This document shows, piece by piece, positions 1,461 through 31,732 of a stretch of DNA of 64,000 nt (within the stretch, counting starts at the first letter, position 1; each line of letters opens with the position of its first letter). A program made the position numbers and the translations under genes. The DNA is from Butyrivibrio sp. (GTDB lineage Bacteria; Bacillota; Clostridia; Lachnospirales; Lachnospiraceae), in the NCBI GenBank assembly GCA_017615275.1, contig JAGAAO010000024.1, forward strand, positions 4,172 to 68,171. Reading direction: 5' to 3'. The notes under the pieces were generated by a model that ran no database searches, had not been told where the DNA came from, and saw only the letters and a list, made by a program, of their open reading frames with translations.

Positions 1461-2795
1461 TTAATCAGTAGCTCCGGCAGTATCCGCGGCAACTTTCTCG
1501 CTGTACTTCTTAACATTCTCGGATACCTGATACTCTTTGTCATCAAACAAGAATTCATGTAACCACTTTACGTTACTTTCAAGATCCTTAGGGATTACGC
1601 AGCTTCCCTTATTTCCGACTCTACCTGTACCACGCATGCTTTCCTCCGGGAAACCATTGTCGCCTACAACCTGGTATTTAGTAACGTTCTTAACCATCTT
1701 AAGTATCTCGGGAAGGTCAAGTGTCGTAGCCGTTTCGTCGAAAGCTTTATTTGCAATTTTCTCAAGCTCAGCAGGGCTCTTAGTCTTGGCTAATTCAATA
1801 CATTTCATCAATACTTCTCTCTGCCTAGCGGCACGTGCGAAGTCGTTACCAGCCGTATATCTGATACGGCAATATGCTGTTGCCTGGAGTCCTGTAAGTT
1901 TCTGCACACCGGGCGTAGTAACTGCTTTATACTCCCTATGCATATCATCTGCCATCTTCTTCTGATAACTGTTCAAATGCGGAAGCTCTGCTTCATCAAC
2001 ATCAATTTCTACTCCGCCGAGCTCATCAACAACGTTTGCAAGTCCGCCGAAACCGATAGTTACAGAATCCGTTATATCCATATCAAGATTCGAATTGAGC
2101 ATGGCAATGGCTCTGTCAGGGCCGCCCTTGGCATATGTGGCGTTACACTTATTATACTCTTCTTTGCCCTCTTTATTCTTGCCCAGATTGAGATATGTGT
2201 CACGGTAAACAGAGCAAAGTTTAATTTCTCCTGTATCGTTGTTGATCGACGCAATAATAATTGAATCCGATCTTCCTGTCTCTGTGACTTTTCCGCTAAT
2301 ATTATCCAAACCAAAAAGTGCAATATTGGTATAGTCAGCCATCTTCTCATTTTTGGCTACTTCTTCGTGGATACTCTCGTCGATCTTTTCTTCATCCAGA
2401 TCGATCTTACCTACCTTGGTGACATTCGCCTTGTAAAATACATTGTATGCTACAAACAACAATACCAATGCCACAGCAATTTCACTTGCAAGCAAAATAA
2501 TTGCTTTGTTCTTTTTCTTACTCGAATTTCTTGCGGGTGCTCCCGATCTAGGAGACGATCCGTTTCTTCTAGGTGCATCATAATCTCTTGCAGATCTTGA
2601 GTTTCTTCCTGATGTTTCTGACTCCCTCCTTCTTATCGGGCGCTCATCATAATAATCATCATCATATCTTTCTCGTCTTGATCTCGAGTCTCTGTTGCTT
2701 CTTCCAGAAGTTCTTACATCATCTCTATATCGTCCATCCCTAGAGGAGGGTCTGCGTCCACCTCTATCGTAGTATTCATCATCGCGATTAGACAT
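1461..2795 (-). CDS. LCP (LytR-CpsA-Psr) glycopolymer-peptidoglycan ligase with an Arg/Asp/Tyr/Ser-rich N-terminal tail
   Basis: NIALFGLD, GRSDSIII, SVYRDTY, YCRIRY and NDFARAARQREVL motifs; one TM helix. ATG at 2795 follows AAGGAG (ORF track starts at 2861). Confidence 0.92.
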   Translation of the reverse strand: MSNRDDEYYDRGGRRPSSRDGRYRDDVRTSGRSNRDSRSRRERYDDDYYDERPIRRRESETSGRNSRSARDYDAPRRNGSSPRSGAPARNSSKKKNKAIILLASEIAVALVLLFVAYNVFYKANVTKVGKIDLDEEKIDESIHEEVAKNEKMADYTNIALFGLDNISGKVTETGRSDSIIIASINNDTGEIKLCSVYRDTYLNLGKNKEGKEEYNKCNATYAKGGPDRAIAMLNSNLDMDITDSVTIGFGGLANVVDELGGVEIDVDEAELPHLNSYQKKMADDMHREYKAVTTPGVQKLTGLQATAYCRIRYTAGNDFARAARQREVLMKCIELAKTKSPAELEKIANKAFDETATTLDLPEILKMVKNVTKYQVVGDNGFPEESMRGTGRVGNKGSCVIPKDLESNVKWLHEFLFDDKEYQVSENVKKYSEKVAADTAGATD

Positions 2796-2901
2796 AATAC
2801 TTCTCCTTGTCCCAAAACTATATATCGTTTTTTTGCGCAAAAAATTTAGCGCATACCTCATTTATTTTGCCATAAATGACAAAAATATACAAGTCTATAC
2901 G

Positions 2902-4362
2902 CTAATACGCATTTTTATTAACGAAACCATGTCTAAAAGTACCAACGATTATCCTAATATCGAAAGCAATAGACCAGTTTTCAATATAATAAATATCGTA
3001 ATCTATTCTCTTCCTTATGGAAGTATCGCCTCTGTATCCGTTTATCTGAGCCCATCCCGTAAGTCCCGGTCTTACCTGATGCTTAACCATATATCTGGGA
3101 ATCTGCTCCTTAAACTTCTCGACAAACTGCGGTCTCTCAGGCCTTGGTCCAACCAGACTCATCTGACCCACAAATATATTAAAGAGCTGAGGTATCTCAT
3201 CAAGACTTGTTCTTCGCAGGAACTTTCCTATTCCCGTAACTCTCGGATCGTTCTTGGTCGTCCATCCTTTCTTCTCATCGGATTCCGACTGAAGCTCCAT
3301 CGTCCTGAACTTATACATCATAAACGGCTTGCCACCGAGCCCTATTCTCTCCTGCTTGAAAATAACAGGTCCTTTGCTTGACTTCTTTACGAGAATCGCG
3401 ATCACTATCATTGGAATCGCAAATATAATGATTCCAAAGAAAGATCCGACTATATCCATCATTCTCTTTGCAAGCCTGTTAACAGAATTGGTAAGAGGCA
3501 CATACCTGATATTGATAACAGGAAGTCCCTGTACATCCTCCGTAAAAGGATTGCTTGGGAAAAGAGATGAATAATCGGGAATGAACTTGGTATGCACACC
3601 CGAATTCTCACACTTTGCAACAAGCTTCTCAAGAAGATCGTAATCATCCAAAGGAAGTGTGATCGTTATCTCATCATAATTACTGTTCTGAAGATAATCA
3701 TCGAGCTGATCTATTTTTCCCACAACTTCCACACCGTGATAGCTCGTACCTATCGGAACAAGATTATCCAAAACTCCGACTATCTGATAGCCCCACTGAG
3801 GGTTGTCCAATATTCTGCTGATATAGCCTTCCGCAGCTCTTGAATATCCCACTAGTAAAATGTGCTTGATGTTATATCCTTTTTGTCTTATAAACCTAAG
3901 GAAATTACGCAACAGCCCGTGAGCAAGCGTAGTCAAAAATGTGTTGAGGAATACGAAAATGGCTATCATTCCTCGAGACAAGTCATTCTGATGAGACGCA
4001 TACAGTACTACGAAGAAGCCGACTACGCCCATGACATTTGCCTGGAAAATATCAACAAACTCTTCCCATAACTTAAGCGTACGTCTCGAAGTATAGAGAT
4101 GAGCCATATAATACAGGAAAAGATATGCGGGAACCAAGAAGGAAAGCGCCATTGCATATTCTGTAAACGGAAGCTTACCGACATTCTTGCCATCCAAAAG
4201 ATAATTCTCAAGAGTGGTTATTCCCCTTTTTTCCGCGTTCAAACGGAAATTATACACATAATAAAACCATATAAAATATGATGCTATATATGAACCGGCA
4301 ACTATAAGTCCGTCCAATATCACATGTGCTCTGTTAAGATGTACTTGATTATCCTTGATCAT
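2902..4362 (-). CDS. Undecaprenyl-phosphate hexose-1-phosphate (priming) transferase, WcaJ/CpsE-like
   Basis: N-terminal TM helices, then KRMMDI, KFRTM, DPRVT, SLDEIPQ, MSLVGPRPE, RPGLTGWAQING and YIENWS. ATG at 4362 overlaps the upstream TGA. Confidence 0.93.
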   Translation of the reverse strand: MIKDNQVHLNRAHVILDGLIVAGSYIASYFIWFYYVYNFRLNAEKRGITTLENYLLDGKNVGKLPFTEYAMALSFLVPAYLFLYYMAHLYTSRRTLKLWEEFVDIFQANVMGVVGFFVVLYASHQNDLSRGMIAIFVFLNTFLTTLAHGLLRNFLRFIRQKGYNIKHILLVGYSRAAEGYISRILDNPQWGYQIVGVLDNLVPIGTSYHGVEVVGKIDQLDDYLQNSNYDEITITLPLDDYDLLEKLVAKCENSGVHTKFIPDYSSLFPSNPFTEDVQGLPVINIRYVPLTNSVNRLAKRMMDIVGSFFGIIIFAIPMIVIAILVKKSSKGPVIFKQERIGLGGKPFMMYKFRTMELQSESDEKKGWTTKNDPRVTGIGKFLRRTSLDEIPQLFNIFVGQMSLVGPRPERPQFVEKFKEQIPRYMVKHQVRPGLTGWAQINGYRGDTSIRKRIDYDIYYIENWSIAFDIRIIVGTFRHGFVNKNAY

Positions 4363-5339
4363 ACACCGGGTGCTCCAAACCTTCTTGCTACGTTTATCCA
4401 CAGCTCAAGCTGAAGTTTAACGCACTCAAGAAGTTCTTTCTTACCAAATTTTTGTCTTCTGTCTTTGTTATTTACAATCTTGGAAAATCCCGACATAATT
4501 CCTTTTATGTGATTTTTTCCAAGTCCCTTACGGACATAGAAGACATGCTTTATTATTATTCCCGCCAGAATCAATGGCAGATTTATAATAATCTGCAAAG
4601 CAGGCATATTTTTGTATATAAAGTATACGTTATTACCCGCTGTAAGTTCAACCTTAAATGAGTTATATCTCGATCCGGAAGTTCCGCTTCCCGCGTGATA
4701 CACCAAAGCCCTCGGATCACAGGCATTTATATACCCCTTTATCCTAGCTCTGTATCCAATATCCACGTCTTCAAGATAGCAAAAATGTTTCTCGTCAAAT
4801 AAGCCGACTTCATCAAACAGTTCTCTTCTGTACATAGCCGCCCCCGCGCATGCGGAAGTAACAGCCTTTGTCTTTGTAAGAAAACTGCTGTCCTTGTCTC
4901 TTCCAGGAGAAAAAGCCCATCCGAGAGCACAGTAATAATCTCCGCTGTCATCGATAAGATCGGGATTCGTAAGCTGAAGAAGTTTAGCCTGAACACTGAA
5001 AAGTCTTTTACCCTTTTCAATTGTATCCACCAACACCTCAATAGCTCTCTCATCGCATACGGTATCATCATTGAGTAAAAAGACATACTTTGATTCCGCT
5101 GCCTTTATTCCCACATTGACTGCATTCGCAAATCCCGTATTTTTCGAAAGCGCAATAACTTTAACATCGGGATGATTGTCCCTGATATATGTTACGCTCC
5201 CGTCTGTTGAACCATTGTCAACAATAATAACACAAAAATCCCTGTACGTCTGCTTTTTTAAGCTATTTAAGCATTCATCAAGGTATTTTCTTCCGTTGTA
5301 ATTTGGTATTACCACTGCAACAGTTTCCATAGGGATCAT
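4359..5339 (-). CDS. GT2 glycosyltransferase (WbbL-like rhamnosyltransferase)
   Basis: VVIPNYNG, VDNGSTDGS, NTGFANAVN, LLNDD, SACAGAAMY and YLEDVD motifs. Confidence 0.9.
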   Translation of the reverse strand: MIPMETVAVVIPNYNGRKYLDECLNSLKKQTYRDFCVIIVDNGSTDGSVTYIRDNHPDVKVIALSKNTGFANAVNVGIKAAESKYVFLLNDDTVCDERAIEVLVDTIEKGKRLFSVQAKLLQLTNPDLIDDSGDYYCALGWAFSPGRDKDSSFLTKTKAVTSACAGAAMYRRELFDEVGLFDEKHFCYLEDVDIGYRARIKGYINACDPRALVYHAGSGTSGSRYNSFKVELTAGNNVYFIYKNMPALQIIINLPLILAGIIIKHVFYVRKGLGKNHIKGIMSGFSKIVNNKDRRQKFGKKELLECVKLQLELWINVARRFGAPGV

Positions 5340-6742
5340 ATCCTCTTAATCACCTGCGGATCCCACACAATGCGAAGCCCGCGCTTTCTCACTTCATTAC
5401 ATACAGCGAAACTAAGCTCTATGATCTTTTCCTCAGAGAGCCCTTGGAATCTGTCATCTGCGCTCTTCTCCGCATTAAATGTATCTATGTACTTTAAACC
5501 CGTAACCTCTTCATAGACCGAGGTGAACTCAGGTCTTACAGCCATGCATCTTATGTCGACCGCATAGCAATCCTGCTGAACAACCGCTCTGTGCTGCAAT
5601 CCGCCGCTGTATCCAAGCGGTATTCCTTTATAAAGAGCCGTCTTGTCCTTTTGATATATTCCGCCCGCAACTTTGTTTTTCTTATTTACAAGCTTACCGC
5701 CGACACATCCCACATCTATCCTGCATGTAAGCATGTCGGGCAGATAGTTTACTCTGTAAAAACCAAGATGCGGAAGATCTGTAACTTCTGCGTCTATACC
5801 TGCTGCCTTAAGCGCAGAATCCACCGCACTTCGTCCCGCCTCGTAAGCATACGACTTACTTGCCGGATTGGCTGCTGTAGATCCGCTGTGGCATCGCCAG
5901 TGATAGAGCACTTTATCTATGTGCGCGATCTGTCCCGAAGCCATATCCATAGATAGAGCCGCTTCGCAACAAGTCCTCAGAAACAGATCAAAGTCCTGTG
6001 CTCCGTCAAATTTAGGTCTGAACTTCATTCTCTTTATTATATCCGCTCTTATGATCGTAAAGTGACAGATATAGTTATTTGAGAGAAGATAGTCCATATT
6101 GAAATCGGGCTTGGCATGAAGCTCGTAATATCTCTTTGTACCCTTGTCCTCTTCAAACTTATCCTCATTTGAATATATAAGCCTTATAGGACAGTTTTTA
6201 TATCCCGACAGATGATTTCGGCTCATGCTCTTTTTAATCACTCTGAAAGCCTCATAAAGAGCATCGGGAGTAAGAATGTCATCATGATCCAAAAGGCCGA
6301 TATAATCGCCCTTTGCATATTCCAAAGCCCTGTTCGTATTCTCTGAAATACCGCCGTTTTTTTCGATATGGTGGTATTTTATCCTGGGATCCTTATCTGC
6401 ATATTCCTTGGCAACACCCAAAGGAGAAGGGGAAGCATCCGCAAGAACAAGCTCCCAGTTGGAATAGCTTTGCTGCGTTACGGATTCTATCATCTCTCTT
6501 AAATATTTTTCCTCGGTATTGTACAAAGGAACAACAATGCTGAAGTTCACGGTTTCGCCTTCATCGGCGAAACGCTTGTACTCCAGATTCTGTTCCTTTA
6601 AAACATCAGAAGAGAGAGGGTGATACTCATACTTCTCGGAAGCATTTAAAGACGCCCTTTCAATTGCTGCATAAAATGCGGCCCCAACACCATTGCGCTT
6701 GGCATATGCTATTGTTTTAGTGACCGTATTCTTTATATTCAT
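5336..6742 (-). CDS. GT2 glycosyltransferase with an intact first domain and a remnant second domain
   Basis: FSIVVPLYN, GISENTN, LLDHDD, NNYICH, GAQDFD and LYHWR; the C-terminal part keeps only a DVGCVGGKL remnant. Confidence 0.88.
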   Translation of the reverse strand: MNIKNTVTKTIAYAKRNGVGAAFYAAIERASLNASEKYEYHPLSSDVLKEQNLEYKRFADEGETVNFSIVVPLYNTEEKYLREMIESVTQQSYSNWELVLADASPSPLGVAKEYADKDPRIKYHHIEKNGGISENTNRALEYAKGDYIGLLDHDDILTPDALYEAFRVIKKSMSRNHLSGYKNCPIRLIYSNEDKFEEDKGTKRYYELHAKPDFNMDYLLSNNYICHFTIIRADIIKRMKFRPKFDGAQDFDLFLRTCCEAALSMDMASGQIAHIDKVLYHWRCHSGSTAANPASKSYAYEAGRSAVDSALKAAGIDAEVTDLPHLGFYRVNYLPDMLTCRIDVGCVGGKLVNKKNKVAGGIYQKDKTALYKGIPLGYSGGLQHRAVVQQDCYAVDIRCMAVRPEFTSVYEEVTGLKYIDTFNAEKSADDRFQGLSEEKIIELSFAVCNEVRKRGLRIVWDPQVIKRI

Positions 6743-6748
6743 GTTCGC

Positions 6749-8488
6749 TTAGCCTACTACTTCTTTCACTGCTGCAGTGAGCTCATCCTGAAGCTTTGCA
6801 GCGTCTTCCAGATTCTTGCCCTTAACACCCATGTAGAATTTGATCTTGGGCTCTGTTCCCGAAGGTCTTGCGCAGCACCATGAATCATCATTAAGTGCAA
6901 AGTAAAGAACATTTGAAGTGGGAAGACCTGTCTTGGACTCTTCGCCTGTCTCCATGTTGATGACCTTACCTGTCTTGTAATCTCTGAATTCTTCAACCTT
7001 CCAGTTGCCGAACTGCTTGGGAGGATTGCTTCTAAGCTTATCCATGATAGCTGCGATCTGCTCAGCACCTTCCTTACCCTTCATTGTGATGGAATACTGA
7101 CCTTCCTTGTAGTAGCCGTACTCCTCGTACATATCTATCATAGCGTCCCAAACGCTCTTGCCCTGCTTCTTGTAAAAAGCAGCAAGCTCGCACAGACACA
7201 TAACCGCAACTATAGCGTCCTTATCTCTTGCATGTGTTCCCGCAAGACATCCGTAGGACTCCTCGAGACCAAATACATAATTGTGTGACTGACCGTTCTG
7301 CTCATAGAGCTTGATCTGCTCACCGATATACTTAAATCCTGTAAGAACTTCCGTATAGTACAGTCCGTATTTCTCAGCAACATGTTTTGCCATGTTTGTT
7401 GTAACTATTGTTGTTACGAAAGCGGGATCAGCAGGCATTGTTCCAACTTTGGTGCGCTCTCTTAAGATATACTCACCGATGAGCATACCTGACATATTTC
7501 CTGTAAATCCAACATACTCGCCTGTCTTAAGATCTTTTGCATAGATTCCGAGACGGTCCGCATCGGGATCGGTTGCAAGAACGATGTCGGCATCTTTCTC
7601 TTTGGCAAGTTCAAGCGCAAGCTTAAATGCCTTGGGATCCTCGGGATTGGGATAATCAAGAGTTGTGAAATCCGGATCCGGAGCTTCCTGCTCAGGAACC
7701 ACATACACATTCTTAAATCCAAGTTCTTTAAGAACTCTTCTCACGGGAAGGTTACCTGTTCCGTGGAAAGGCGTATATACAATGCTGAACTTATCAGCCA
7801 TCTCGTCGATGACATCCTTGTGAATAATCTGCTTCTTAAGTTCAACCATGTACTTGTCGTCTATCTCTGTTCCGAATGAAACATAGAGTCCCTGCGCGAT
7901 GGCGTCCTCTTTGGACATAGTCTTAACTTCATGGTAATCCGTGATCGCAACAACTTCCGCAATAATTCCGTTGTCGTGAGGAGGTGTTACCTGTGCGCCA
8001 TCCTCCCAGTATACTTTGTATCCGTTGTACTCAGGCGGATTGTGAGAAGCAGTTACCATTACTCCTGCGATACATCCAAACTCTCTGAGTGCAAAAGAAA
8101 GCTCGGGTGTGGGACGTAAAATATCGCTCACATATGCCTTGATACCGTTTGCAGCAAGGCAAAGTGCCGTCTCATCGGCAAACTCGGGTGAAAACCTTCT
8201 GCAGTCGTAAGAAATTGCTACGCCCTTCTTAGCCGCATCGGCTCCGCCGTTTTTCTTTATATAATTTGCAAGTCCCTGTGTTGCCTTTCTTACAGTGTAC
8301 TTGTTCATTCTGTTTGTTCCGGCACCGATAACTCCTCTGAGTCCGCCCGTACCAAACTCAAGCTCCCTGTAAAATCTATCTTCAACCTCTGCCTCATCAT
8401 TTCTGATAGCCATCAGTTCCTGCTTTGTCTCGTCATCAAAATAAGAATCGTTAAGCCAATACTCAAACTGTTTTGACGCTTCACTCAT
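6749..8488 (-). CDS. pgm: Phosphoglucomutase/phosphomannomutase
   Basis: FGTGGLRG, TASHNP phosphoserine loop, DPDADR metal loop, EESYG and RPSGTEPKIK. Probable ATG at 8488. Confidence 0.93.
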   Translation of the reverse strand: MSEASKQFEYWLNDSYFDDETKQELMAIRNDEAEVEDRFYRELEFGTGGLRGVIGAGTNRMNKYTVRKATQGLANYIKKNGGADAAKKGVAISYDCRRFSPEFADETALCLAANGIKAYVSDILRPTPELSFALREFGCIAGVMVTASHNPPEYNGYKVYWEDGAQVTPPHDNGIIAEVVAITDYHEVKTMSKEDAIAQGLYVSFGTEIDDKYMVELKKQIIHKDVIDEMADKFSIVYTPFHGTGNLPVRRVLKELGFKNVYVVPEQEAPDPDFTTLDYPNPEDPKAFKLALELAKEKDADIVLATDPDADRLGIYAKDLKTGEYVGFTGNMSGMLIGEYILRERTKVGTMPADPAFVTTIVTTNMAKHVAEKYGLYYTEVLTGFKYIGEQIKLYEQNGQSHNYVFGLEESYGCLAGTHARDKDAIVAVMCLCELAAFYKKQGKSVWDAMIDMYEEYGYYKEGQYSITMKGKEGAEQIAAIMDKLRSNPPKQFGNWKVEEFRDYKTGKVINMETGEESKTGLPTSNVLYFALNDDSWCCARPSGTEPKIKFYMGVKGKNLEDAAKLQDELTAAVKEVVG

Positions 8489-8554
8489 CTTCGTTCCCTC
8501 CTTAAAGTTCAACTAAAAAATATTATAATAGCATGTTTTAAAATGCGCCATGCC

Positions 8555-12739: not shown

Positions 12740-12748
12740 TCCCCGTTT

Positions 12749-16232: not shown

Positions 16233-16252
16233 GCATTTCTCCGTGTCATTCT

Positions 16253-17275: not shown

Positions 17276-17283
17276 TCTTTTGT

Positions 17284-17829: not shown

Positions 17830-17848
17830 TTTTTTCACATCTCCAAAT

Positions 17849-18217
17849 CTAGTTTGTTCCCACAACAGATGCGGGAGCTATATAATCTTCATATTCGATA
17901 TCCGATGAAGATCCGAGTGCGGCGCTTGCCTGCTCCGTACTCTCATTCTTTTCGATAACGACAGACGGAATCTCCTCGTAATCATCAAAGAAATTCACAT
18001 CATTCAGAAAGCCCTGTGTATTATCCCCGATCTGCTCTCCGTATGCACTGCCGTTAGCGCTTGAATAGGTTGCGGCAGAGGCGCCGGCATTCGAAGCCTC
18101 TCCCTTGCCGAAAAGTTCATTTATTTTGTCAGCATTTGTGGCATAGACTATGACCAGCACCAAAATAAGCGCACTGACAATAGCAAGCATCGCCGTCCTG
18201 AATACTTTATAGTCCAT
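17849..18217 (-). CDS. Small single-pass membrane protein of unknown function with an Ala/Ser- and acid-rich tail
   Basis: N-terminal hydrophobic helix; fills the gap between rmlA and rmlC; ATG at 18217 follows GAGG. Confidence 0.7.
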   Translation of the reverse strand: MDYKVFRTAMLAIVSALILVLVIVYATNADKINELFGKGEASNAGASAATYSSANGSAYGEQIGDNTQGFLNDVNFFDDYEEIPSVVIEKNESTEQASAALGSSSDIEYEDYIAPASVVGTN

Positions 18218-18237
18218 CTGCAACCTCTGTTCCTTTA

Positions 18238-19107: not shown

Positions 19108-19122
19108 TGTCGTTCTCCTCTT

Positions 19123-20208: not shown

Positions 20209-20227
20209 TTAAATATACCTTTCCTTT

Positions 20228-21736: not shown

Positions 21737-21761
21737 ATAATGTACCTATTTTGCACAGTCA

Positions 21762-24700
21762 TCATCTGTATGAAATATTAAGGTCAACGTTTCCGCTGAT
21801 ACCTGCTACCTTACCCTTAGATGTGTACTGCCACATGTCATACCTTGAAGCTGTGTAGCTCGGACTTGCTGCATACTGAGCAAGCCAGATCTTGTAGCTT
21901 GTAAGCTGACTTGTGTTAATCTTACTTGTAAACCAGGTCTTGTTTGCATAAACACCGGGTCTGTATCCCGCATTCTGAATTGTTCCGCAGAATGCTCTGA
22001 TGTTTGCTGTTCTCTGCGCTGCGCTTATATTATCTCCGCGTCCGTTACTTCCCTCAACATCAAGGTATACGGGATATGTGATTCCGTAACCCTTGCAAAG
22101 TCCGATAACCATTGACGCTTCTTCTACAGCCTCGGCTTCGTTTACCGCCTGTGTAAAGAAGTAAACTCCGACCTTAAGTCCTGCTGCCTGTGCCCCCTTG
22201 ATATTGGTCTTGAAGTTAGGATCTTCGATAAGAGCACCTGCAGATGAACCTCTGTATCCGCATCTGATAATTACAAATTCTATTCCTTCGTTCTTAACAG
22301 CCTTCCAGTCAATATTTCCGTTCCACTTACTTACGTCGATTCCTCTTCCGCCCGATGAGCTTGAAAGAACTCCGTCACTTCCGAATACGTACTTGGCGCC
22401 CTGAATAACCTGTTCACCTGTTACGTATTCTCCGTCCTTGGTGTAGTAGTAAGTCTTGCCGTTTATTGTCTGCCAGCCTTTGTACTTAAACTTTCCTTCA
22501 CCTTTTTCCTGAAGGTAGAACTTCTCTTTGTTGTAGTAATCGGAATATGTTGCTTCTCTGAACTTACCGTCGGAGCCCTTGATATAAACCTGAGTACCGT
22601 CTTGAAGTTTGAGAAGATCTTTTCTGCCCATTACCTTAACTTCAACAGTTGCTGTATTGTATCCCTTTGCAGTGAACTCAATTGTTGTGGTTCCTGCTTT
22701 CTTGGCAGTGATCTTATTTCCTGAAACAGCTGCTATATCACTGTTCTTGGACTTTCCGCTGAGTCCTTCGACATCTGCCTTAACCTCTAATGACTCAGAC
22801 TCAACAAGAGTGATCTTACTGATCTTGAGCTTAGCCTTAAGATCGCTTGCCGCAGTAGGATTGATCTTCTTGATCGTAAATGTAAATGTCTTATATCCTG
22901 TTGCGGAAATCTTTATATCTATAGTTCTGTTGCACTCTTTAAGTGCCTTGATCGTATTTCCTGAAAGCTCAACAAGTCCGTTGTCAGCAGAATTAGCAAG
23001 AGCAATGCTGTATCCCGGAAGCTTGGGATCTACACCTGCAACAGTACATGTGTCGCCGACTTTAAGCTCGACATTATTATTTGATACAGAGAATATCTTA
23101 TCATCAGGCTTTGTAACATTGACTGTTATCTCCGCACTCTCATATCCCTTTGCGGAAACAGTGATCTTTGCAGTTCCTTCTTTCTCTGCCTTGATTGTAT
23201 TTCCGCTTACGGACACACAATCATTGTTTGAAGAAAATGTTACTGTTTCACTTCCTGCTTTTGCCTCAATTGTCTTTGTTGTTCCCGCTTTGATCGATAT
23301 GCTTATCTCGTTTACGGCAACCTTCTTGGGAGCTTCTTCCTTAGGCTTTTCATCCTTGGGCTTTTCATTGCCTGTATTACCGGTTCCGTTTCCGCCGTTC
23401 TGACCCTGTCCGCTATTCTGACCGCCCTGTGAAGGATTGTCATTGTTACCGGTATTGCCGGATCCGTTTCCGCCGCTCTGACCCTGTCCGTTATTCTGAC
23501 CGCCCTGTGAAGGATTGTCATTGTTATTGCCATTGTTGTTTCCGTTATCATTGCCGGAACCACTCTGGCCGTTATCATTGTTCTCTTCTTTTTTGGGTGC
23601 TTCGGTTGAAGCATTATTTCCGGCATCCGTTTTCTCACTGCTACCTGTGCCGGCAGGATCAGCTGTTGTAAGAAGAGCAACAGTTCTGAAGCTTGCAAAA
23701 TCAATCTTTGATGTCTGTGTGGGATTCGGGATCTTATCCTTACCGATTTCTTTGTAAGTACCTGATCCGTCCGTATCACTTCCGTCGAGAGGAATCTTCT
23801 CGCTCTCAACATATTCAACAGTATCCTTAAGTGTGGACTCTACAACAGTCTTAACCGCTGTATCCTCTTTGGCTGCGTTGACCTGTGACTCCTTCTTAAC
23901 CTCGTTACTTACATCAACAGGCTTCATCTCCACCTTATCTTTAACTTCCACAGATTTGGGAGTTGTATCAAGCTTATAATTTGAATAGTCACCGGGAAGT
24001 TCACTCGGTGTAACTTTATATTTTCCGGGCTTAAGATCCTTCTTATAGATGATACCGTCACGGTCGTCATCCTCATAAGAGACTGTCGATCCGTCAGGTG
24101 TAACAACAGATACCTTGAAGGGTACATTTGAAACCAGCTTCTTGGTGTTTCCGTTGATGAACTTCATCTTAAGGTCGCCCTTTATGGAAGTAAGGTTAAG
24201 GCTTACGGAAGCTTCCTGATTCTCGGGTTCTTCTTCCTCTTCCTCTTCTTCCTCATCAACTATCTCAGCGGTCATTGCCTTAGCCTTCTCGGCATCCGCA
24301 ACTGCAATAAGTCCGCTATGTCCGACAATCTCCACATCTTCAACGGTAGCTCCGACATCGGCAAAAGAACTGATCTGGCTGCTCTTACCCATTGCTGATG
24401 AATAGAATATACCGGTTGCAATTGCACCCGCAAAAATAAATACAGCAACAACAGCTGCCACTCTCTCGACCGGAGTTGTATTCTTTATAAACTCTCCGGC
24501 TTTACCCATGAAAGCAACAATCTTATTGCCTTCTCTGTCTTCGGCTCTTCTGTTGGGATGTCTCCTGTCGGTATATCCGCCCTTTAACGAAGCCTTATGT
24601 CCGCGTCCGAACTCTTCGTCATCATACCTATCATCGAATCCGCCGTCATATTCATAATCGTCGTATTCATCATCTTCATAATCGCGGTCACTGTCATCGT

Positions 24701-25301
24701 AGTCGCGATCATACTCGTCTTCTTCGTAATCGCGGTCGCTGTCATCATAATCGTCTTCGTACTCATCTTCGTACTCGTCATCTACGTCTTCAAATTCCTT
24801 GTCAGCTCGCGCAAATTCTTTATCAAAATCGTACTCAACATAACCGTCATCAGCACGATCATCCTTGCGAGCATACTCGCGGTCATCATCGGCATAATCA
24901 CGGTCATCATAGTCACGATCATAATCATCATCTTCATAATCACGATCGTCATCATATTCGCGGTCGTATTCGTCTTCTTCGAAGTCGCGATCGCTGTCAT
25001 CGTAGTCGCGATCGTATTCGTCTTCATAATCACGATCGTCGTAGTCACGGTCGTAATCATCTTCTTCATAATCACGATCGTCGTCGTAGTCACGATCATA
25101 ATCATCGTCATAATCGTCTACGTAATCGCGGTCATCGTCATAATCGCGATCATAATCATCATCATAGTCATCGTAACGTCGGTCATCACGATCGTCATAC
25201 TCTCTGTCGTAATCTTCCTCGTAGTCCCTTCGGTCTCTCCTAAGCTTTCTGTCAGAAGGTTTGCGGCTGAGAAATAATCCGCTCTTAATAATCTTTTTCA
25301 T
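21762..25301 (-). CDS. Membrane-anchored GH25 muramidase with an acidic Asp/Tyr repeat N-terminus, Ig-like repeats and a Gly/Asn/Gln linker
   Basis: C-terminal GIDVSKWNG, IIRCGYRG, VGVYFFTQA, YLDVE (DxE), WLAQY, WQYTS and VDLN; GWQTINGKTYYY wall-binding-like repeat; three SGNxIxA Ig-like units. ATG at 25301 follows AGGGAG. Confidence 0.9.
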   Translation of the reverse strand: MKKIIKSGLFLSRKPSDRKLRRDRRDYEEDYDREYDDRDDRRYDDYDDDYDRDYDDDRDYVDDYDDDYDRDYDDDRDYEEDDYDRDYDDRDYEDEYDRDYDDSDRDFEEDEYDREYDDDRDYEDDDYDRDYDDRDYADDDREYARKDDRADDGYVEYDFDKEFARADKEFEDVDDEYEDEYEDDYDDSDRDYEEDEYDRDYDDSDRDYEDDEYDDYEYDGGFDDRYDDEEFGRGHKASLKGGYTDRRHPNRRAEDREGNKIVAFMGKAGEFIKNTTPVERVAAVVAVFIFAGAIATGIFYSSAMGKSSQISSFADVGATVEDVEIVGHSGLIAVADAEKAKAMTAEIVDEEEEEEEEEPENQEASVSLNLTSIKGDLKMKFINGNTKKLVSNVPFKVSVVTPDGSTVSYEDDDRDGIIYKKDLKPGKYKVTPSELPGDYSNYKLDTTPKSVEVKDKVEMKPVDVSNEVKKESQVNAAKEDTAVKTVVESTLKDTVEYVESEKIPLDGSDTDGSGTYKEIGKDKIPNPTQTSKIDFASFRTVALLTTADPAGTGSSEKTDAGNNASTEAPKKEENNDNGQSGSGNDNGNNNGNNNDNPSQGGQNNGQGQSGGNGSGNTGNNDNPSQGGQNSGQGQNGGNGTGNTGNEKPKDEKPKEEAPKKVAVNEISISIKAGTTKTIEAKAGSETVTFSSNNDCVSVSGNTIKAEKEGTAKITVSAKGYESAEITVNVTKPDDKIFSVSNNNVELKVGDTCTVAGVDPKLPGYSIALANSADNGLVELSGNTIKALKECNRTIDIKISATGYKTFTFTIKKINPTAASDLKAKLKISKITLVESESLEVKADVEGLSGKSKNSDIAAVSGNKITAKKAGTTTIEFTAKGYNTATVEVKVMGRKDLLKLQDGTQVYIKGSDGKFREATYSDYYNKEKFYLQEKGEGKFKYKGWQTINGKTYYYTKDGEYVTGEQVIQGAKYVFGSDGVLSSSSGGRGIDVSKWNGNIDWKAVKNEGIEFVIIRCGYRGSSAGALIEDPNFKTNIKGAQAAGLKVGVYFFTQAVNEAEAVEEASMVIGLCKGYGITYPVYLDVEGSNGRGDNISAAQRTANIRAFCGTIQNAGYRPGVYANKTWFTSKINTSQLTSYKIWLAQYAASPSYTASRYDMWQYTSKGKVAGISGNVDLNISYR
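23374..23526. repeat. Two-copy 78-bp in-frame tandem repeat in the GH25 linker
   Basis: Copies start at 23374 and 23452; each encodes NNDNPSQGGQNxGQGQxGGNGxGNTG. Confidence 0.9.
24600..25235. repeat. Degenerate coding repeat (DDYDRDYDD/RDYEDDEY) in the GH25 N-terminus
   Basis: Recurring tcatcgtagtcacgatc/atcataatc-type units; the protein is almost only D, E, Y and R for about 200 aa. Confidence 0.9.
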
Positions 25302-25403
25302 ACAATCTCCCTGCACGATTAATAAAATCAAATTTTAATATCGTAACTAAATATGTATTCCCCCGACACCCCTCGATACTAGATATAGAATTTTATCATC
25401 TAA

Positions 25404-25432
25404 ATTATGCAATAAAAATAGAAAAATATCAA
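25404..25432 (-). promoter_or_regulatory. Putative sigma-A promoter for the GH25 gene and downstream genes
   Basis: TTGATA-N17-CATAAT on the minus strand, with a second TGnTAAAAT at 25390-25398. Confidence 0.5.
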
Positions 25433-25478
25433 GAAACACTGATTAATTCAGCGTTATCTGCAAACAATCCCCAAAAGA

Positions 25479-27044
25479 TCAGTCAATCCACACAGTGTAG
25501 TCCTTATCAAGAACATATATCGTGTATCCCTCCACATTGCCGATCTCTTCTACAGTCGGATTCTCCCTTGCAAGGAACTTATCAAATTCCTCCGCAAGTG
25601 CATCAGACAAGATATAACACGTAGGGCTTCCAGCATCCTTGATCGGCGGATACCAGGTCTTGTCTGTAAGCCACTTGGCACCCTGAAGCTCCTCCATGGA
25701 ATTAACAGCTCTGATCTTAACTTTATCATTGCTCATAACAGTTATCGTATTTGCATGATCAAAGGTCGAATAGCCGTATTCATAACCTCTTTCCTCCATC
25801 CACTTTGCAACCAGCATCGGAGGTTTGGTATCCGAATTGTCATTTACTATAAGGTCGCGACAGAAGCCCCCCGACTTCACCGCTCCGTATATGATCACAA
25901 GAACTGCAACAATTGCCGTAGCTTCTTTTCCAAACTTTCTCATAAAAAGAGCTGTTCCCGCGCCCACAACAAATATGATCATTATGTAATATCTTGGAGC
26001 CGCCTCAGCCGTGGTAAATGTCGACGACATAATGCACACGACAACTCCTGCTATCAAAGCAAATGTACTCCAGTCTCCCGAAGTAAGAGTCTCCTCTTTC
26101 GGCCCCAGAAGAAGTCTTTTCCCTGTAAAGAAGTATCCGACAGCCGCCAGGATACAGAATATCGCAACAAGCACCGGCATCTTCGCAAAGCTTATAACAT
26201 CAAGGAAGAACGGCCATACGATCTCCGTGAACTTCTCGCCCGCATGCCTTATGTTCCTGCTCGCTCCAAGATTGTAGGAGCCCGTGAAATTCGTCGCAAA
26301 GAAGGCAAGAAAAGATGTGGCAAAAAGCCATAGAAGAATCATGATATTGCCTTGCTTTTCCTTCTTAAAAAACGTCACGATCCTTCTTACAATCTCTATT
26401 CCGAGGATCGGCATATAGCAGAAAATGCACGCATGCATTCCCTGTAATCCGTTGAGAAAAGAAAGAAGCAGAGTAAGTGCAAATATCCACATCGAAATCT
26501 TATTCTTCTTAATTGATCTGTTGTAGATCATCAAGATCAGGAAAAGCGTGATAAAGTGGCTCACATAATAAGCCGCATAAAGAAAGATCATGCTCTGTAT
26601 CTCATCGCTTTCATCCGCGGTCATAAGCGTAAAAGCAATGATTATCGCAGACAATATCTGGATCGCAGAAAAGCCCAGCTGCTTAAAATACAGCACCATG
26701 AGTGCCGTCATTATTATCATCATAACAGTGCATGCAAGTCCCATAGATAAGTTCATGTCATGCCCCGTGACGGGATATAAGAACGCCGCAAGATTCGGAG
26801 CTGATATAACGCACTTCTCCGTTGATCCCACCCAAGTTTCGGGCTGTGAAAAACCATTGTTATAAATAACGGGACCAAGCAAAGTATCCGCCGCAACATC
26901 CGAATCCATCATCAGCGTGTAGTGATTCACATTCGCATCCGAATACACCCACAGCAAAAAGATCAAAACTGCTCCAAGCAAAGCTGTAAGCGTGTATTCG
27001 ACTATTTTTTTATTTCTGTCACTAATCTGAAATATAGTTTTCAT
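25479..27044 (-). CDS. Polytopic membrane protein, putative GT-C glycosyltransferase
   Basis: Acidic MDSD motif after TM1, about 11-12 TM helices, PRYY and a soluble C-terminal domain. Confidence 0.62.
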   Translation of the reverse strand: MKTIFQISDRNKKIVEYTLTALLGAVLIFLLWVYSDANVNHYTLMMDSDVAADTLLGPVIYNNGFSQPETWVGSTEKCVISAPNLAAFLYPVTGHDMNLSMGLACTVMMIIMTALMVLYFKQLGFSAIQILSAIIIAFTLMTADESDEIQSMIFLYAAYYVSHFITLFLILMIYNRSIKKNKISMWIFALTLLLSFLNGLQGMHACIFCYMPILGIEIVRRIVTFFKKEKQGNIMILLWLFATSFLAFFATNFTGSYNLGASRNIRHAGEKFTEIVWPFFLDVISFAKMPVLVAIFCILAAVGYFFTGKRLLLGPKEETLTSGDWSTFALIAGVVVCIMSSTFTTAEAAPRYYIMIIFVVGAGTALFMRKFGKEATAIVAVLVIIYGAVKSGGFCRDLIVNDNSDTKPPMLVAKWMEERGYEYGYSTFDHANTITVMSNDKVKIRAVNSMEELQGAKWLTDKTWYPPIKDAGSPTCYILSDALAEEFDKFLARENPTVEEIGNVEGYTIYVLDKDYTVWID

Positions 27045-27048
27045 ATAA

Positions 27049-27408
27049 TCATCCGTTCAATGGCCCTCCGAGCGCATAGAATACAGCTATTCCTCCAAGT
27101 ATAAATATCATTCCCACAATTTTACGGGGTGTCACTTTCTCTTTGAATACAATCCTGGACATTATCATGACAATGATATATCCCACGGGCTCCATTACAA
27201 CAACTCCCATGTATCCGAGTCCACCGTAACAGCAGATTGAAATACCCATGGACAATACAAGAAGTCCGTATCCGAAGATAACAAGTGCATTCAGATACTC
27301 CCTTATTACCGAAGGATACTTTTTTTCAGCGCTCTTCTTAAGAAGAACCTGTGATGTCGATGCTATAAGTTCAGCAAGAAGCATTAGGAAAAAGTACTTA
27401 TTTATCAT
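27049..27408 (-). CDS. SMR/EamA (DMT) small transporter subunit
   Basis: 119 aa, 4 TM; SQVLLKKSA and VFKEKVT...G. Confidence 0.8.
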   Translation of the reverse strand: MINKYFFLMLLAELIASTSQVLLKKSAEKKYPSVIREYLNALVIFGYGLLVLSMGISICCYGGLGYMGVVVMEPVGYIIVMIMSRIVFKEKVTPRKIVGMIFILGGIAVFYALGGPLNG

Positions 27409-27766
27409 CTGCTTTTTCCTCCGAAGTACTGAAGTTCATAATAATAACGCCTATAAAGACAAGTAAAACTCCGACCACTTTCCAAAAATTGATACCCTGA
27501 CTGAATATTACAAAATTCCAAAGCATTGACCACATCAAAGTCAGCGCCTTGTTTGCATATGCCACAGACAGCTGAAATTTCTTTATCATCTGCTGCCAGA
27601 TGATGGCATAAACACCCAATATGCCAAATTCAAGTGCAAAAAAACATAAATATCCAAAGGAAAGCAACTCATACTTGGACGCAAGGTTTCCCGCCACAGT
27701 CGAAAGCGAATATACGATCACCGCGCCCTGAAGCTGCAAAATATCAACTATTCCTATCTTCTTCAT
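27398..27766 (-). CDS. SMR/EamA (DMT) small transporter subunit
   Basis: 122 aa, 4 TM; YAIIWQQMIKKFQLSVAYAN resembles ArnE/ArnF-type LSxAY; overlaps its partner gene. Confidence 0.8.
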   Translation of the reverse strand: MKKIGIVDILQLQGAVIVYSLSTVAGNLASKYELLSFGYLCFFALEFGILGVYAIIWQQMIKKFQLSVAYANKALTLMWSMLWNFVIFSQGINFWKVVGVLLVFIGVIIMNFSTSEEKADDK

Positions 27767-27781
27767 TTCATCCCACCAAAT

Positions 27782-29155
27782 TTATTTTTCTTTTTCTTCT
27801 TCCGCATCCTCTTTATCACTCGGATATATAGCCTTCACAAAATGTTTTGCTATATGTTCGTTACAAGCGGCATTTGTATGGATATTATCAACGAGCATAT
27901 CCTTACTGTTCTCATCGTCGACGGTACCGTAGTAGTTATCTATAAAGCTCACAGCCGTAGCTCCACTGGTATCCAACATAAACTGATAGTAAGTTGTAAG
28001 CTCACCGTTTCCCAGATCCACCTTATCTCCGTTTACGATCTGTCCCGATGAATCATAGGCATAACACATTGTAAGTGACATACATATGATCCTGATATAA
28101 GGATACTTTTCCTGAAATTTGGTGATTCCCGATTTAAGAGCTCCGCTGTACGCAACCTCATTAAGATCATTTTCAGGATCAAGTCCCGCTCTGAGGTTTA
28201 TGTAATCCTGCGCATCATAAAATATTACAAGCGTATCTATCTTGTCGAAATCCACATTTTCAAGAACAGACAGATTGTCGGAATATTTCGGATCTTCCAG
28301 TGACTGCGCCGCCTCATGAAGCTGTGAATAATCACCGCTTGTCATGGCATCGACCACACTTGGGAAACAAAATGCATCAAGCGGATAATCGCTGCTGTAT
28401 GAAGGATTCTTACGTGCTATGGTCGTTGAAGGAAATCCTGCGTTTATGCATGCTGCACCCGAGAGCTGACTGATCTGATCGACAACTCCGGTTTCCGAAT
28501 CATCATATGTAATGGCATCATTTCCGACAAAAAGGATTGTCTCCAATCCGTCATCTTCATGCCCTTCCTTCATATCATCAGACAGAACAAAAACCTCATC
28601 CTGAATCTCTACATCATAGTTTTCATCATCCGATATTTTAACTTTCTGTCCGCTTGCATTCCATATCACAAGCTTTATTACAGAAAATAAGATAACAGCA
28701 GCAATTACTCCGATTACCGCAAAGTGAGCCCAACGGGGAATTCCACCCTTTCCGTCATCTTCGTCATCATAACGATCGTCGTCATCATATCTGTCATCAT
28801 AACGGTCGTCATATCTGTCATCATCGTAGCGATCTTCGTCATCATAACGCTCATCACGATCATCGTCTTCTTCATCGTCATAGCGGTCATCGTCGTAGCG
28901 ATCTTCGTCATCATATCTGTCGTCGTACTGTTCTTCATCCTCGTAGCGTTCGTCGTCAAAATCCTCCGGATCATCATAATCACCGTCGTAATCAATATCA
29001 TCCTCAGGATCATCATAATCTTCATCGGAATCGTCTACGTCTTCACCGTAATCGTCGAAATCATCGTATTCATCATCTTCATATTCACGATCATAGTCAT
29101 CTACCATACGATCGTCATCATATTCATAATCATCATAATCTCTTCTGTTTCTCAT
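27782..29155 (-). CDS. Membrane-anchored SGNH-fold protein, probably catalytically altered, with an Asp/Tyr repeat N-terminus
   Basis: About 135 aa of DDRYDD repeats, one TM, then ILFVGND (block I), INAGF, FYDAQD (block III) and DNIH (block V). Confidence 0.72.
   Translation of the reverse strand: MRNRRDYDDYEYDDDRMVDDYDREYEDDEYDDFDDYGEDVDDSDEDYDDPEDDIDYDGDYDDPEDFDDERYEDEEQYDDRYDDEDRYDDDRYDDEEDDDRDERYDDEDRYDDDRYDDRYDDRYDDDDRYDDEDDGKGGIPRWAHFAVIGVIAAVILFSVIKLVIWNASGQKVKISDDENYDVEIQDEVFVLSDDMKEGHEDDGLETILFVGNDAITYDDSETGVVDQISQLSGAACINAGFPSTTIARKNPSYSSDYPLDAFCFPSVVDAMTSGDYSQLHEAAQSLEDPKYSDNLSVLENVDFDKIDTLVIFYDAQDYINLRAGLDPENDLNEVAYSGALKSGITKFQEKYPYIRIICMSLTMCYAYDSSGQIVNGDKVDLGNGELTTYYQFMLDTSGATAVSFIDNYYGTVDDENSKDMLVDNIHTNAACNEHIAKHFVKAIYPSDKEDAEEEKEK
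28750..29150. repeat. Degenerate coding repeat (DDRYDD/DDYD) in the SGNH-like protein N-terminus
   Basis: Many tandem RYDD and DYDD units in the translation. Confidence 0.9.
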
Positions 29156-31728: not shown

Positions 31729-31732
31729 CCCA

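What the first reader, a model, noticed from the sequence alone, without database searches (positions are those of the whole stretch)
2500..29155. Three unrelated single-pass wall enzymes share long Asp/Tyr/Arg repeat N-terminal tails: candidate disordered-tail assembly or phospho-switch system
Seen: the GH25 muramidase (about 200 aa, 24600-25235), the SGNH-like protein (about 135 aa, 28750-29155) and the LCP ligase (about 95 aa, 2510-2795) each carry a low-complexity tail before one TM helix, built from the same words (RDYD, RYDD, DYYD). Two tails are strongly acidic with regularly spaced Tyr; the LCP tail is Arg-rich (RGGRR, RSRR). Synonymous codons vary among units, which argues for selection on the peptide rather than recent slippage. 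With catalytic domains outside, the tails are predicted cytoplasmic. Established: Tyr-Arg and opposite-charge contacts drive condensation of disordered proteins, and BY-kinases regulate polysaccharide synthesis via Tyr phosphorylation. Inference: the tails may co-cluster wall opening, polymer attachment and acyl editing at one site, or act as multi-Tyr phospho or cation sensors. I know of no described system like this.
Basis: partly seen in the sequence, partly recalled or inferred. Interest (0 to 1): 0.8.

Follow-up and report, generated by a model that had tools for sequence, protein, structure and literature searches.

The report
Acidic tyrosine tails on wall enzymes
Three cell-wall protein genes here start with long charged repeats predicted to be floppy and to sit inside the cell, but only the muramidase's acidic, tyrosine-dotted tail is kept across its wider family, where it likely works as a loose docking tether that positions the enzyme rather than as part of a three-enzyme switch.

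Summary
The three tails are real, in frame, and under purifying selection in close relatives (dN/dS 0.12-0.20). They are not a conserved trio. The GH25 tail is old: 140 of 146 family representatives have one of at least 80 aa, 107 of 140 are strongly acidic, and the repeat unit differs between lineages. The SGNH tail is a recent expansion (3 of 31 relatives in the genus), and that protein has Asp in place of the catalytic Ser. The long LCP tail is largely genus-limited (2 of 18 other genera). The conserved feature is acid plus Tyr, not Tyr-Arg. Tyr is 12.9% of the inside acidic tracts and 2.4% of the outside ones in the same proteins, and unlinked membrane proteins (PknB, an SH3b protein) show the same contrast. 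Four of seven other genera with Tyr-rich GH25 tails gave no BY-kinase match. Slippage is ongoing. Best reading: a fuzzy cytoplasmic docking tether, like HubP/FimV, PodJ or MltG/MpgA, in a lineage where DivIVA/GpsB was not found. Partner unknown; function inferred.

The parts
21762..25301 (-). Membrane-anchored GH25 muramidase, 1179 aa from the likely start: N-terminal tail, one TM helix, SpaA-like beta domain, Asn/Gly linker, beta-rich stalk, choline-binding-like repeat, GH25 domain
   Evidence: Pfam PF01183 E 1e-37, PF17802, PF19127; AlphaFold2 model
25269..25301 (-). Basic and hydrophobic N-terminal cap of the GH25 tail (family consensus MKKxF); possible membrane-binding helix (inferred)
   Evidence: motif in 30 of 140 family tails against 1.2 in shuffles; first 15 residues net positive in 49 of 61
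24600..25235 (-). Asp/Glu/Tyr/Arg low-complexity core of the GH25 tail, an aromatic residue about every 5; predicted disordered and cytoplasmic
   Evidence: acidic core in 22 of 24 relatives scored in the genus
25000..25038 (-). 13 codons missing in frame in a contig from another study, with 8 letters of microhomology: strain-level repeat slippage
   Evidence: run X5, record 18; length checked
24405..24521 (-). Juxtamembrane helix (24483-24521) and TM helix (24405-24461) of the GH25 protein
24192..24302 (-). Glu-rich tract on the outside of the GH25 protein with no Tyr: internal control for the inside tail
21777..22343 (-). GH25 catalytic domain; the acidic motifs recalled as catalytic (GIDVS, DVE, C-terminal VD) are present
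   Evidence: the catalytic role of these residues is recalled
27782..29155 (-). Single-pass SGNH-fold protein, 457 aa, likely a pseudo-esterase
   Evidence: fold match to GDSL/SGNH hydrolases, best E 1e-9; no Pfam hit for this sequence itself
28721..29155 (-). 145-aa Asp/Tyr/Arg tail of the SGNH protein; lineage-limited expansion
   Evidence: long acidic tail in 3 of 31 relatives in the genus, in two places on the tree
28508..28531 (-). SGNH block I reads G-N-D where active enzymes have G-D-S: Asp at the nucleophile position
   Evidence: no Ser there in 19 of 19; register from the HMM alignment to a PDB chain; two distant relatives keep G-N-S
1461..2795 (-). LCP glycopolymer-peptidoglycan ligase, one TM helix at 2448-2504
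   Evidence: PF03816 E 3e-30; TIGR00350 over its cut-off
2505..2795 (-). 97-aa Arg/Ser/Asp/Tyr tail of the LCP protein, net +11, beginning with a conserved RDDEYY-type motif (2763-2795)
   Evidence: motif in 20 of 30 relatives in the genus; tail of 70 aa or more in 27 of 36
30646..33205 (-). MBOAT acyltransferase (DltB-like, under the equivalog cut-off) and an adjacent 360-aa single-pass protein: the more likely acylation pair of the locus (inferred)
   Evidence: kept beside the SGNH gene in relatives

Best explanation
The GH25 tail is an acidic, tyrosine-dotted region, predicted disordered and cytoplasmic, that likely acts as a low-affinity multivalent docking tether positioning a membrane-anchored muramidase, while the LCP and SGNH tails are younger, lineage-limited cases of a style found on many of this genome's membrane proteins. 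Shown: the composition, the family-wide retention, the turnover of repeat units, purifying selection in close pairs, and the inside-versus-outside Tyr contrast. Inferred: the acidic residues keep the chain extended and the tyrosines exposed as sticky points; the basic cap and the juxtamembrane helix hold the chain near the membrane; basic surfaces of cytoplasmic or membrane-bound partners bind it loosely and so place the enzyme where wall is opened. Slippage keeps making such repeats and selection filters them by composition, not by sequence. The SGNH tail may be a tolerated by-product on a protein that is probably not an esterase.
For: Family retention: 140 of 146 representatives at 50% identity have a tail of 80 aa or more (median 198); 107 of 140 have net charge per residue of -0.15 or lower; 72 of 140 have Tyr of 8% or more. 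Unit turnover: 35 different most-repeated 5-mers among the 38 of 61 tails with a unit seen three times or more. Tyr 12.9% in inside acidic tracts against 2.4% outside, higher inside in 31 of 35 proteins that have both. Same contrast in PknB (13.2% against 1.2%) and the SH3b protein (8.6% against 0), with few outside residues (84 and 92). In this genome, segments with Tyr of 8% or more: 6 of 7 on the inside of single-anchor proteins, 7 of 12 in multi-pass proteins, 1 of 19 exported, 3 of 25 in proteins without a detected helix. Tyr 801 against Asn 67 and Lys 27 in acidic windows, so not simply the commonest point mutants of Asp and Glu codons. dN/dS 0.12, 0.16 and 0.20 in gap-free GH25, SGNH and LCP tails of pair G018/G035. 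In PknB the same segment lies between the kinase and the TM helix, so it is cytoplasmic. Precedents: acidic repeats of HubP/FimV vary in length and are not freely swappable; the PodJ disordered region recruits clients; the cytosolic part of MltG binds EloR. DivIVA/GpsB over the Pfam cut-off in 0 of 29 genomes of this genus or of genera with this GH25, and 6 of 20 others.
Against: No partner identified and no binding, localisation or expression data. 20 of 140 family tails are neutral or basic with little Tyr, and 37 of the 107 acidic ones have under 8% Tyr, so neither charge nor Tyr is obligatory. Two relatives in the genus have no acidic core, and a clade of 8 genomes lacks the gene at the locus. 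dN/dS below 1 shows constraint, not docking, and rests on small counts. Topology classes come from a hydropathy rule and some are wrong. The DivIVA contrast is confounded by kinship, and 14 of the 20 comparison genomes also lack it.
Confidence: 0.45

Rival explanations
1. Physical positioning without a partner: the bulky, self-repelling chain acts as an entropic and electrostatic bristle that sorts the enzyme to convex or uncrowded membrane, such as the septal edge or nucleoid-free zones, or spaces copies apart.
For: Length is kept better than sequence or even charge (140 of 146 long; 20 of 140 neutral or basic). Crowded disordered domains exert steric pressure on membranes (PMC6363457, search listing and start of abstract only).
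Against: Does not explain why Tyr is enriched inside and not outside, nor the conserved short motifs at the N-termini.
Confidence: 0.17
2. Tolerated repeat expansion: slippage of Asp/Tyr/Glu codon runs lengthens cytoplasmic ends, and selection only removes stops and aggregation-prone residues. Likely true for the SGNH tail, less so for GH25.
For: Excess nucleotide self-repeats; in-frame strain indels of 39 and 6 nt; SGNH tail in 3 of 31 relatives, in two places on the tree; CGY Arg codons 21 of 27 in the GH25 core against about a fifth genome-wide.
Against: Retention in 140 of 146 diverse GH25 representatives; different repeat units converge on acid plus Tyr; Tyr far exceeds Asn and Lys; outside acidic tracts of the same genes lack Tyr.
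Confidence: 0.16
3. One reading: the acidic GH25 and SGNH tails and the Arg-rich LCP tail co-condense at the membrane and cluster wall opening, polymer attachment and acyl editing.
For: Opposite net charges and evenly spaced aromatics. In the one clade that lost the GH25 gene the LCP tail shrank to 20-38 aa with almost no Tyr, while the PknB and SH3b acidic linkers stayed. PodJ, a single-pass protein with a charged disordered region, phase-separates.
Against: That co-loss is one event on the tree. In other genera with this GH25 (16 of 19 long-tailed) the LCP tail is long in 2 of 18 and the SGNH tail in 1 of 16, with no length correlation (rho -0.15 and 0.32, not significant). All three are long in only 4 genomes of the genus. 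Charges do not balance (-80 and -65 against +11). The SGNH protein lacks the nucleophile Ser.
Confidence: 0.12
4. Multi-tyrosine phospho-switch written by a BY-kinase.
For: A CpsD-type BY-kinase with its Wzz-type activator is in the genome, on another contig, and in 17 of 17 genomes of the genus searched. Tyr flanked by acidic residues is a plausible kinase site (recalled).
Against: No BY-kinase match in 4 of the 7 other genera whose GH25 tail has Tyr of 8% or more (G063, G097, G101, G149; 93-99% complete). No such kinase was seen among the window's genes scanned. Phosphate would add little to a chain already at -80.
Confidence: 0.06

Closest known systems
HubP / FimV polar landmark proteins (Vibrio, Shewanella, Pseudomonas)
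   Same: One TM helix, a peptidoglycan-binding part outside, and a large unstructured acidic cytoplasmic region whose repeats vary in number and sequence between close species (PMC12918733, passages).
   Different: Opposite orientation (LysM at the N-terminus), a C-terminal TPR/FimV domain, no enzyme domain. No homology was found; regular Tyr was not mentioned in the passages read.
Streptococcal MltG / MpgA membrane-anchored muramidase
   Same: Cytosolic N-terminal part, one TM helix, catalytic domain outside; the cytosolic part binds EloR, and DivIVA affects its localisation (10.1101/2020.12.18.423453, PMC10269899, PMC8563077; passages).
   Different: YceG/MltG catalytic family and a DUF1346 region, not GH25 with a polyacid tail. 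DivIVA was not found in this genus.
PodJ of Caulobacter
   Same: Cytoplasmic charged disordered region and tandem repeats before a TM helix, peptidoglycan-binding domain outside; the region recruits clients and can phase-separate in vitro (PMC9684454, passages).
   Different: PodJ has coiled coils that carry most of the in vivo condensation; none is predicted in the GH25 tail.
LCP glycopolymer transferases
   Same: Member by domain; N-terminal cytoplasmic tails of very different length are known (6 to 103 aa in Enterococcus hirae; PMC7831098, passage).
   Different: The RDDEYY-type start motif and Arg/Ser/Asp/Tyr block are mostly limited to this genus among those examined; no function for such tails appeared in the passages read.
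SGNH/GDSL hydrolases and O-acetyltransferases (PatB type)
   Same: Same fold, DxxH-like block V retained, beside an MBOAT gene.
   Different: Nucleophile Ser replaced by Asp; block III reads YDAQD in place of GxND. Likely non-catalytic.

Membership tests
GH25 muramidase | GH25 domain over the Pfam cut-off | tested here: met
   PF01183, 130.7 bits against 27, full profile
GH25 muramidase | Catalytic acidic residues (N-terminal Asp, DxE, C-terminal Asp; positions recalled) | tested here: met
   GIDVS, DVE and VD motifs present and invariant in 61 of 61 aligned
GH25 muramidase | Muramidase activity on peptidoglycan | not testable with these tools
   needs an assay
LCP ligase | LCP domain after one TM helix | tested here: met
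   PF03816 and TIGR00350 over cut-off; named equivalogs all under cut-off
SGNH hydrolase | SGNH fold | tested here: met
   Foldseek E 1e-9 to 7bxd, 161 matches at E 0.001 or better; 8 of 19 relatives hit PF13472
SGNH hydrolase | Catalytic Ser in block I (G-D-S) | tested here: not met
   Asp at that position in 19 of 19
SGNH hydrolase | Block III GxND and block V DxxH | tested here: inconclusive
   DxxH present, His in 18 of 19; block III reads Y[DN]xxD
HubP/FimV landmark | LysM outside plus C-terminal FimV TPR domain | tested here: not met
   neither domain hit in any of the three proteins; a working likeness only
MltG/MpgA | YceG catalytic domain | tested here: not met
   no YceG hit; the catalytic domain is GH25
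BY-kinase substrate system | BY-kinase present wherever the Tyr-rich tail is | tested here: not met
   no match in 4 of 7 other genera with Tyr-rich GH25 tails; present in this genome on another contig
BY-kinase substrate system | Phosphotyrosine on the tails | not testable with these tools
   needs phosphoproteomics
Membrane-tethered condensate scaffold (PodJ-like) | Long disordered region with evenly spaced aromatic residues | tested here: met
   spacing z under -2 in 15 of 23 tails in the genus and 16 of 46 in the wider set
Membrane-tethered condensate scaffold (PodJ-like) | Phase separation in vitro or in cells | not testable with these tools
   needs purified tails and imaging

The most novel reading that the evidence does not exclude
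In this branch of the Lachnospiraceae, where DivIVA/GpsB was not found, Tyr-dotted polyacid tails form a shared compositional address on the cytoplasmic face of envelope proteins (GH25 muramidase, PknB, SH3b proteins, LCP and others). One common basic reader, or a membrane-hugging condensate, gathers them at sites of wall remodelling, and any gene can join by repeat expansion, as the SGNH gene did twice.
Probability: 0.15. Interest if true: 0.8.

Novelty: new variant of a known kind. Interest (0 to 1): 0.45.

Why it matters
How wall hydrolases are placed in gut and rumen Lachnospiraceae is little studied, and the usual Firmicute adaptor DivIVA/GpsB was not found in the genomes carrying this protein. 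The GH25 family (738 clusters at 50% identity match its juxtamembrane domain) is a clean case of a bacterial disordered region conserved by composition while its repeats are rebuilt, with a built-in control: Tyr inside, not outside. That makes a sequence-grammar question testable with simple swaps.

Tried and rejected
Common DNA origin or copying between the tails: shared 12- and 15-mers and longest shared run against synonymous shuffles gave P 0.04-0.09 for GH25/SGNH and 0.07-1.0 for the pairs with LCP; borderline, not taken as evidence. Assembly artefact: rejected, since contigs of run X3 cover both tails with no differing letters, contigs of other studies cover parts of the GH25 tail, and relatives carry such tails. 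Start downstream of the repeats: no ATG/GTG/TTG-started alternative fits between tail and TM helix for SGNH beyond codon 17, and the start motifs are conserved. The long antisense and shifted ORFs over the tails are taken as by-products of the repeats. Covariation of tail length between genes within the genus: none significant; some composition correlations at P 0.001-0.04 had mixed signs, and kin are not independent. Complex prediction of the GH25 juxtamembrane domain with the SGNH protein: no answer. ESM Atlas on the tail: no usable hit. PDB search with the single SGNH sequence: none. Sequencing runs: no RNA holder listed. Literature searches found no description of these tails; the library lacks most subscription journals and no supplements were read. 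Earlier scan notes: two unrelated hits, none used. The tree is the quick version; the careful search did not finish. Rows dropped before counts: G019 (contig ends in the gene) and the short paralogue hits; 4 of 150 representatives without the TM region; 6 of 25 family genomes with only short paralogue-type matches; 60 of 150 representatives were picked by eye for near-full length. Start codons in relatives were chosen by rule or by eye. The middle rows were cut from view; its totals were seen.


Full report
Setting. The window is G000:C89:4172-68171 of a 3.18-Mb assembly, 84.8% complete. The closest named locus is titled Butyrivibrio proteoclasticus and has the same gene order (L089); I infer from this that the genus is Butyrivibrio, family Lachnospiraceae. 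The region is a minus-strand surface-polysaccharide cluster with GT2 glycosyltransferases, a methyltransferase, an MBOAT protein, an EamA-like protein and an LCP ligase. The labels rmlA/B/C, wzm/wzt, WcaJ-like and phosphoglucomutase are recalled from the translations, not from a library call. They suggest a rhamnose cell-wall polysaccharide exported by an ABC transporter (inference).

Observation. From the likely starts they are 97 aa (LCP, net +11), 280 aa (GH25, net -80) and 145 aa (SGNH-like, net -65), each followed by one hydrophobic helix. All lie on the disordered side of the charge-hydropathy boundary. AlphaFold2 gives GH25 residues 1-260 low confidence and no secondary structure, then a short helix, the TM helix, beta domains and the GH25 domain. 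Cytoplasmic location is inferred from the outside-acting C-terminal domains and from PknB, where the same kind of segment lies between the kinase and the TM helix.

Translated and selected? In the near pair G018/G035, gap-free alignments give tail dN/dS of 0.12 (GH25), 0.16 (SGNH) and 0.20 (LCP), against 0.06-0.08 for the bodies; two other gap-free LCP pairs give 0.07 and 0.17 (small counts, relatives' genes). So the tails are constrained as peptide. Slippage is also active. Nucleotide 12- and 15-mers recur within the GH25 and SGNH tails beyond synonymous shuffles (P 0.002-0.006; none in LCP). Contigs from other studies show an in-frame 39-nt deletion at 25000-25038 with 8 letters of microhomology and a 6-nt insertion at 29142. 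Copying between the three genes is not shown.

Is it a trio? In the genus, the SGNH protein was found in 31 of 36 relatives but has a long acidic tail in only 3 of 31 (G018, G035, G010). On a quick tree these sit in two places: with G000, and separately G010. The GH25 juxtamembrane domain matched 25 of 36, and 22 of 24 scored have an acidic core in a 172-355 aa tail. The LCP tail is 70 aa or longer in 27 of 36, with an RDDEYY-type start in 20 of 30. One clade of 8 genomes lacks the GH25 gene at the locus and has LCP tails of 20-38 aa, yet keeps acidic PknB and SH3b linkers. This favours a GH25-LCP link but is a single event. Outside the genus, 25 of 160 genomes matched the domain. Of the 19 with strong, long matches, 16 have a GH25 tail of 80 aa or more, but the LCP tail reaches 60 aa in 2 of 18 and the SGNH tail in 1 of 16, with no length correlation. 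The SGNH gene itself accompanies this GH25 (16 of 19 against 0 of 20), which may be kinship alone.

What is conserved. A profile of the juxtamembrane domain finds 738 clusters at 50% identity. Of the best 150, 146 include the TM region; 140 have a tail of 80 aa or more (median 198), 107 of those are strongly acidic and 72 have Tyr of 8% or more, while 20 are neutral or basic. Pooled composition is D 13.7, E 19.7, Y 7.9, R 5.8%. RDY (12 tails against 17.6 shuffled) and RYD/RYE (28 against 33.8) are not enriched, so the shared words are a local dialect. An MKKxF-type cap (30 against 1.2) and an IIDLD-type motif (13 against 0.8) are enriched. In 61 near-full-length proteins (the window's and 60 picked by length), 35 different most-repeated units occur among 38 repetitive tails, most of them acid plus Tyr. 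Tyr is 12.9% of inside acidic tracts and 2.4% of outside ones, higher inside in 31 of 35 proteins, and it outnumbers Asn 801 to 67.

A genome-wide style. Eighteen ORFs of G000 pass a looser acid-plus-Tyr scan, among them PknB, two SH3b proteins, Lgt, a DUF1385 protein and an FHA protein on other contigs. By a hydropathy rule, acidic segments with Tyr of 8% or more are 6 of 7 on the inside of single-anchor proteins, 7 of 12 in multi-pass proteins, 3 of 25 in proteins without a detected helix, and 1 of 19 exported (some classes are wrong). Across the genus PknB and the SH3b protein repeat the contrast (13.2 against 1.2% and 8.6 against 0%; under 100 outside residues each).

The enzymes. GH25 and LCP are clear members of their families. 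The third protein has the SGNH fold, but Asp stands at the nucleophile position in 19 of 19. Two distant relatives keep G-N-S, which supports the register. It is likely a pseudo-esterase, so acyl editing by it is doubtful.

Kinases and adaptors. A BY-kinase with its own Tyr cluster and activator lies on contig C49 and in 17 of 17 genomes of the genus searched, but no match was found in 4 of 7 other genera with Tyr-rich GH25 tails. DivIVA/GpsB (PF05103) was not found in G000 and passed the cut-off in 0 of 10 genomes of the genus, 0 of 19 genera with this GH25 and 6 of 20 others; kin are not independent.

Mechanism. I commit to a fuzzy docking tether (0.45). Acidic residues keep the chain open and the tyrosines exposed, as in the acidic-exposure picture of activation domains (recalled, no call). 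The cap and the juxtamembrane helix hold it at the membrane, and loose binding to basic partner surfaces places the muramidase. Every step after composition and conservation is inferred. Rivals: partner-free steric or electrostatic sorting (0.17), tolerated expansion (0.16; likely right for SGNH), a tail condensate with LCP (0.12), a pTyr switch (0.06).

Known systems. HubP/FimV have unstructured acidic cytoplasmic repeats that vary between species (PMC12918733, passages). PodJ's charged disordered region recruits clients and phase-separates in vitro (PMC9684454, passages). Streptococcal MltG/MpgA is a single-pass muramidase whose cytosolic part binds EloR and whose position depends on DivIVA (10.1101/2020.12.18.423453, PMC10269899, PMC8563077; passages). 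LCP tails of variable length are known (PMC7831098, passage). The window's proteins are members of none of the first three; they work like them at most. Six searches found no account of this GH25 family's tail or of an inside-only Tyr rule; subscription journals and supplements were not covered.

Verdict. Observation confirmed; interpretation partly supported. New variant of a known kind, interest 0.45. The most novel reading not excluded, a shared Tyr-acid address code standing in for DivIVA/GpsB, gets 0.15.

Noticed in passing
L113:2284-3612 (G000:C35:7283-8611, minus): Single-pass protein with a 310-aa Arg/Asp/Tyr cytoplasmic tail and a weak SH3b hit outside; two short motifs (KITNFEDY-type at the start, IEIEDP-type further on) are kept across the genus while the rest varies from about 95 to 350 aa. 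Resembles a MapZ-like landmark in layout only.
   Followed up: partly
window 17849-18223 (-): 124-aa single-pass ORF after rmlA, short in this genus, where other genera have a 410-510 aa protein at about that place that matches part of the GH25 juxtamembrane domain; possibly a truncated paralogue.
   Followed up: no
family GH25 tails and SGNH tails (L028, L090, L091, L268): An IIDLD-type motif recurs near the start of tails of both unrelated families (13 of 140 GH25 tails against 0.8 shuffled): candidate short linear motif for a shared partner; absent from the window's three tails.
   Followed up: partly
SGNH family, L257-L272: The nucleophile position varies (Asp, Ala, Glu, Gly, Asn; Ser in two), and the gene often lies beside the GH25 gene, divergently in several genera: an apparently undescribed pseudo-esterase family.
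   Followed up: partly
L122:1591-2511 (G000:C3:11590-12510, minus): Soluble protein with no Pfam hit, ending in about 118 aa of EEYDD-type repeats: one of the few proteins without a membrane helix that carries the Tyr-acid pattern.
   Followed up: no
L121:1054-3498 (G000:C90:75553-77997, minus): Metallo-beta-lactamase-fold domain joined to a CinA domain through a long Asp/Arg and Pro/Lys/Arg low-complexity linker.
   Followed up: no
L117:1270-3720 (G000:C4:11769-14219): Lgt of 816 aa: about 530 aa beyond the Lgt domain, with acidic repeats.
   Followed up: no
window about 23334-23708 (-): About 125 aa of Asn/Gly/Gln/Ser low-complexity linker on the outside of the GH25 protein, containing a duplicated unit; low confidence in the model, residues 532-656.
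   Followed up: no
G006, G012, G015, G022, G025, G028, G029, G031: One well-supported clade has no GH25 gene at the locus and has a different glycosyltransferase-like gene between rmlB and rmlA in the seven where that stretch was held: a natural comparison group for cell shape and chaining.
   Followed up: partly
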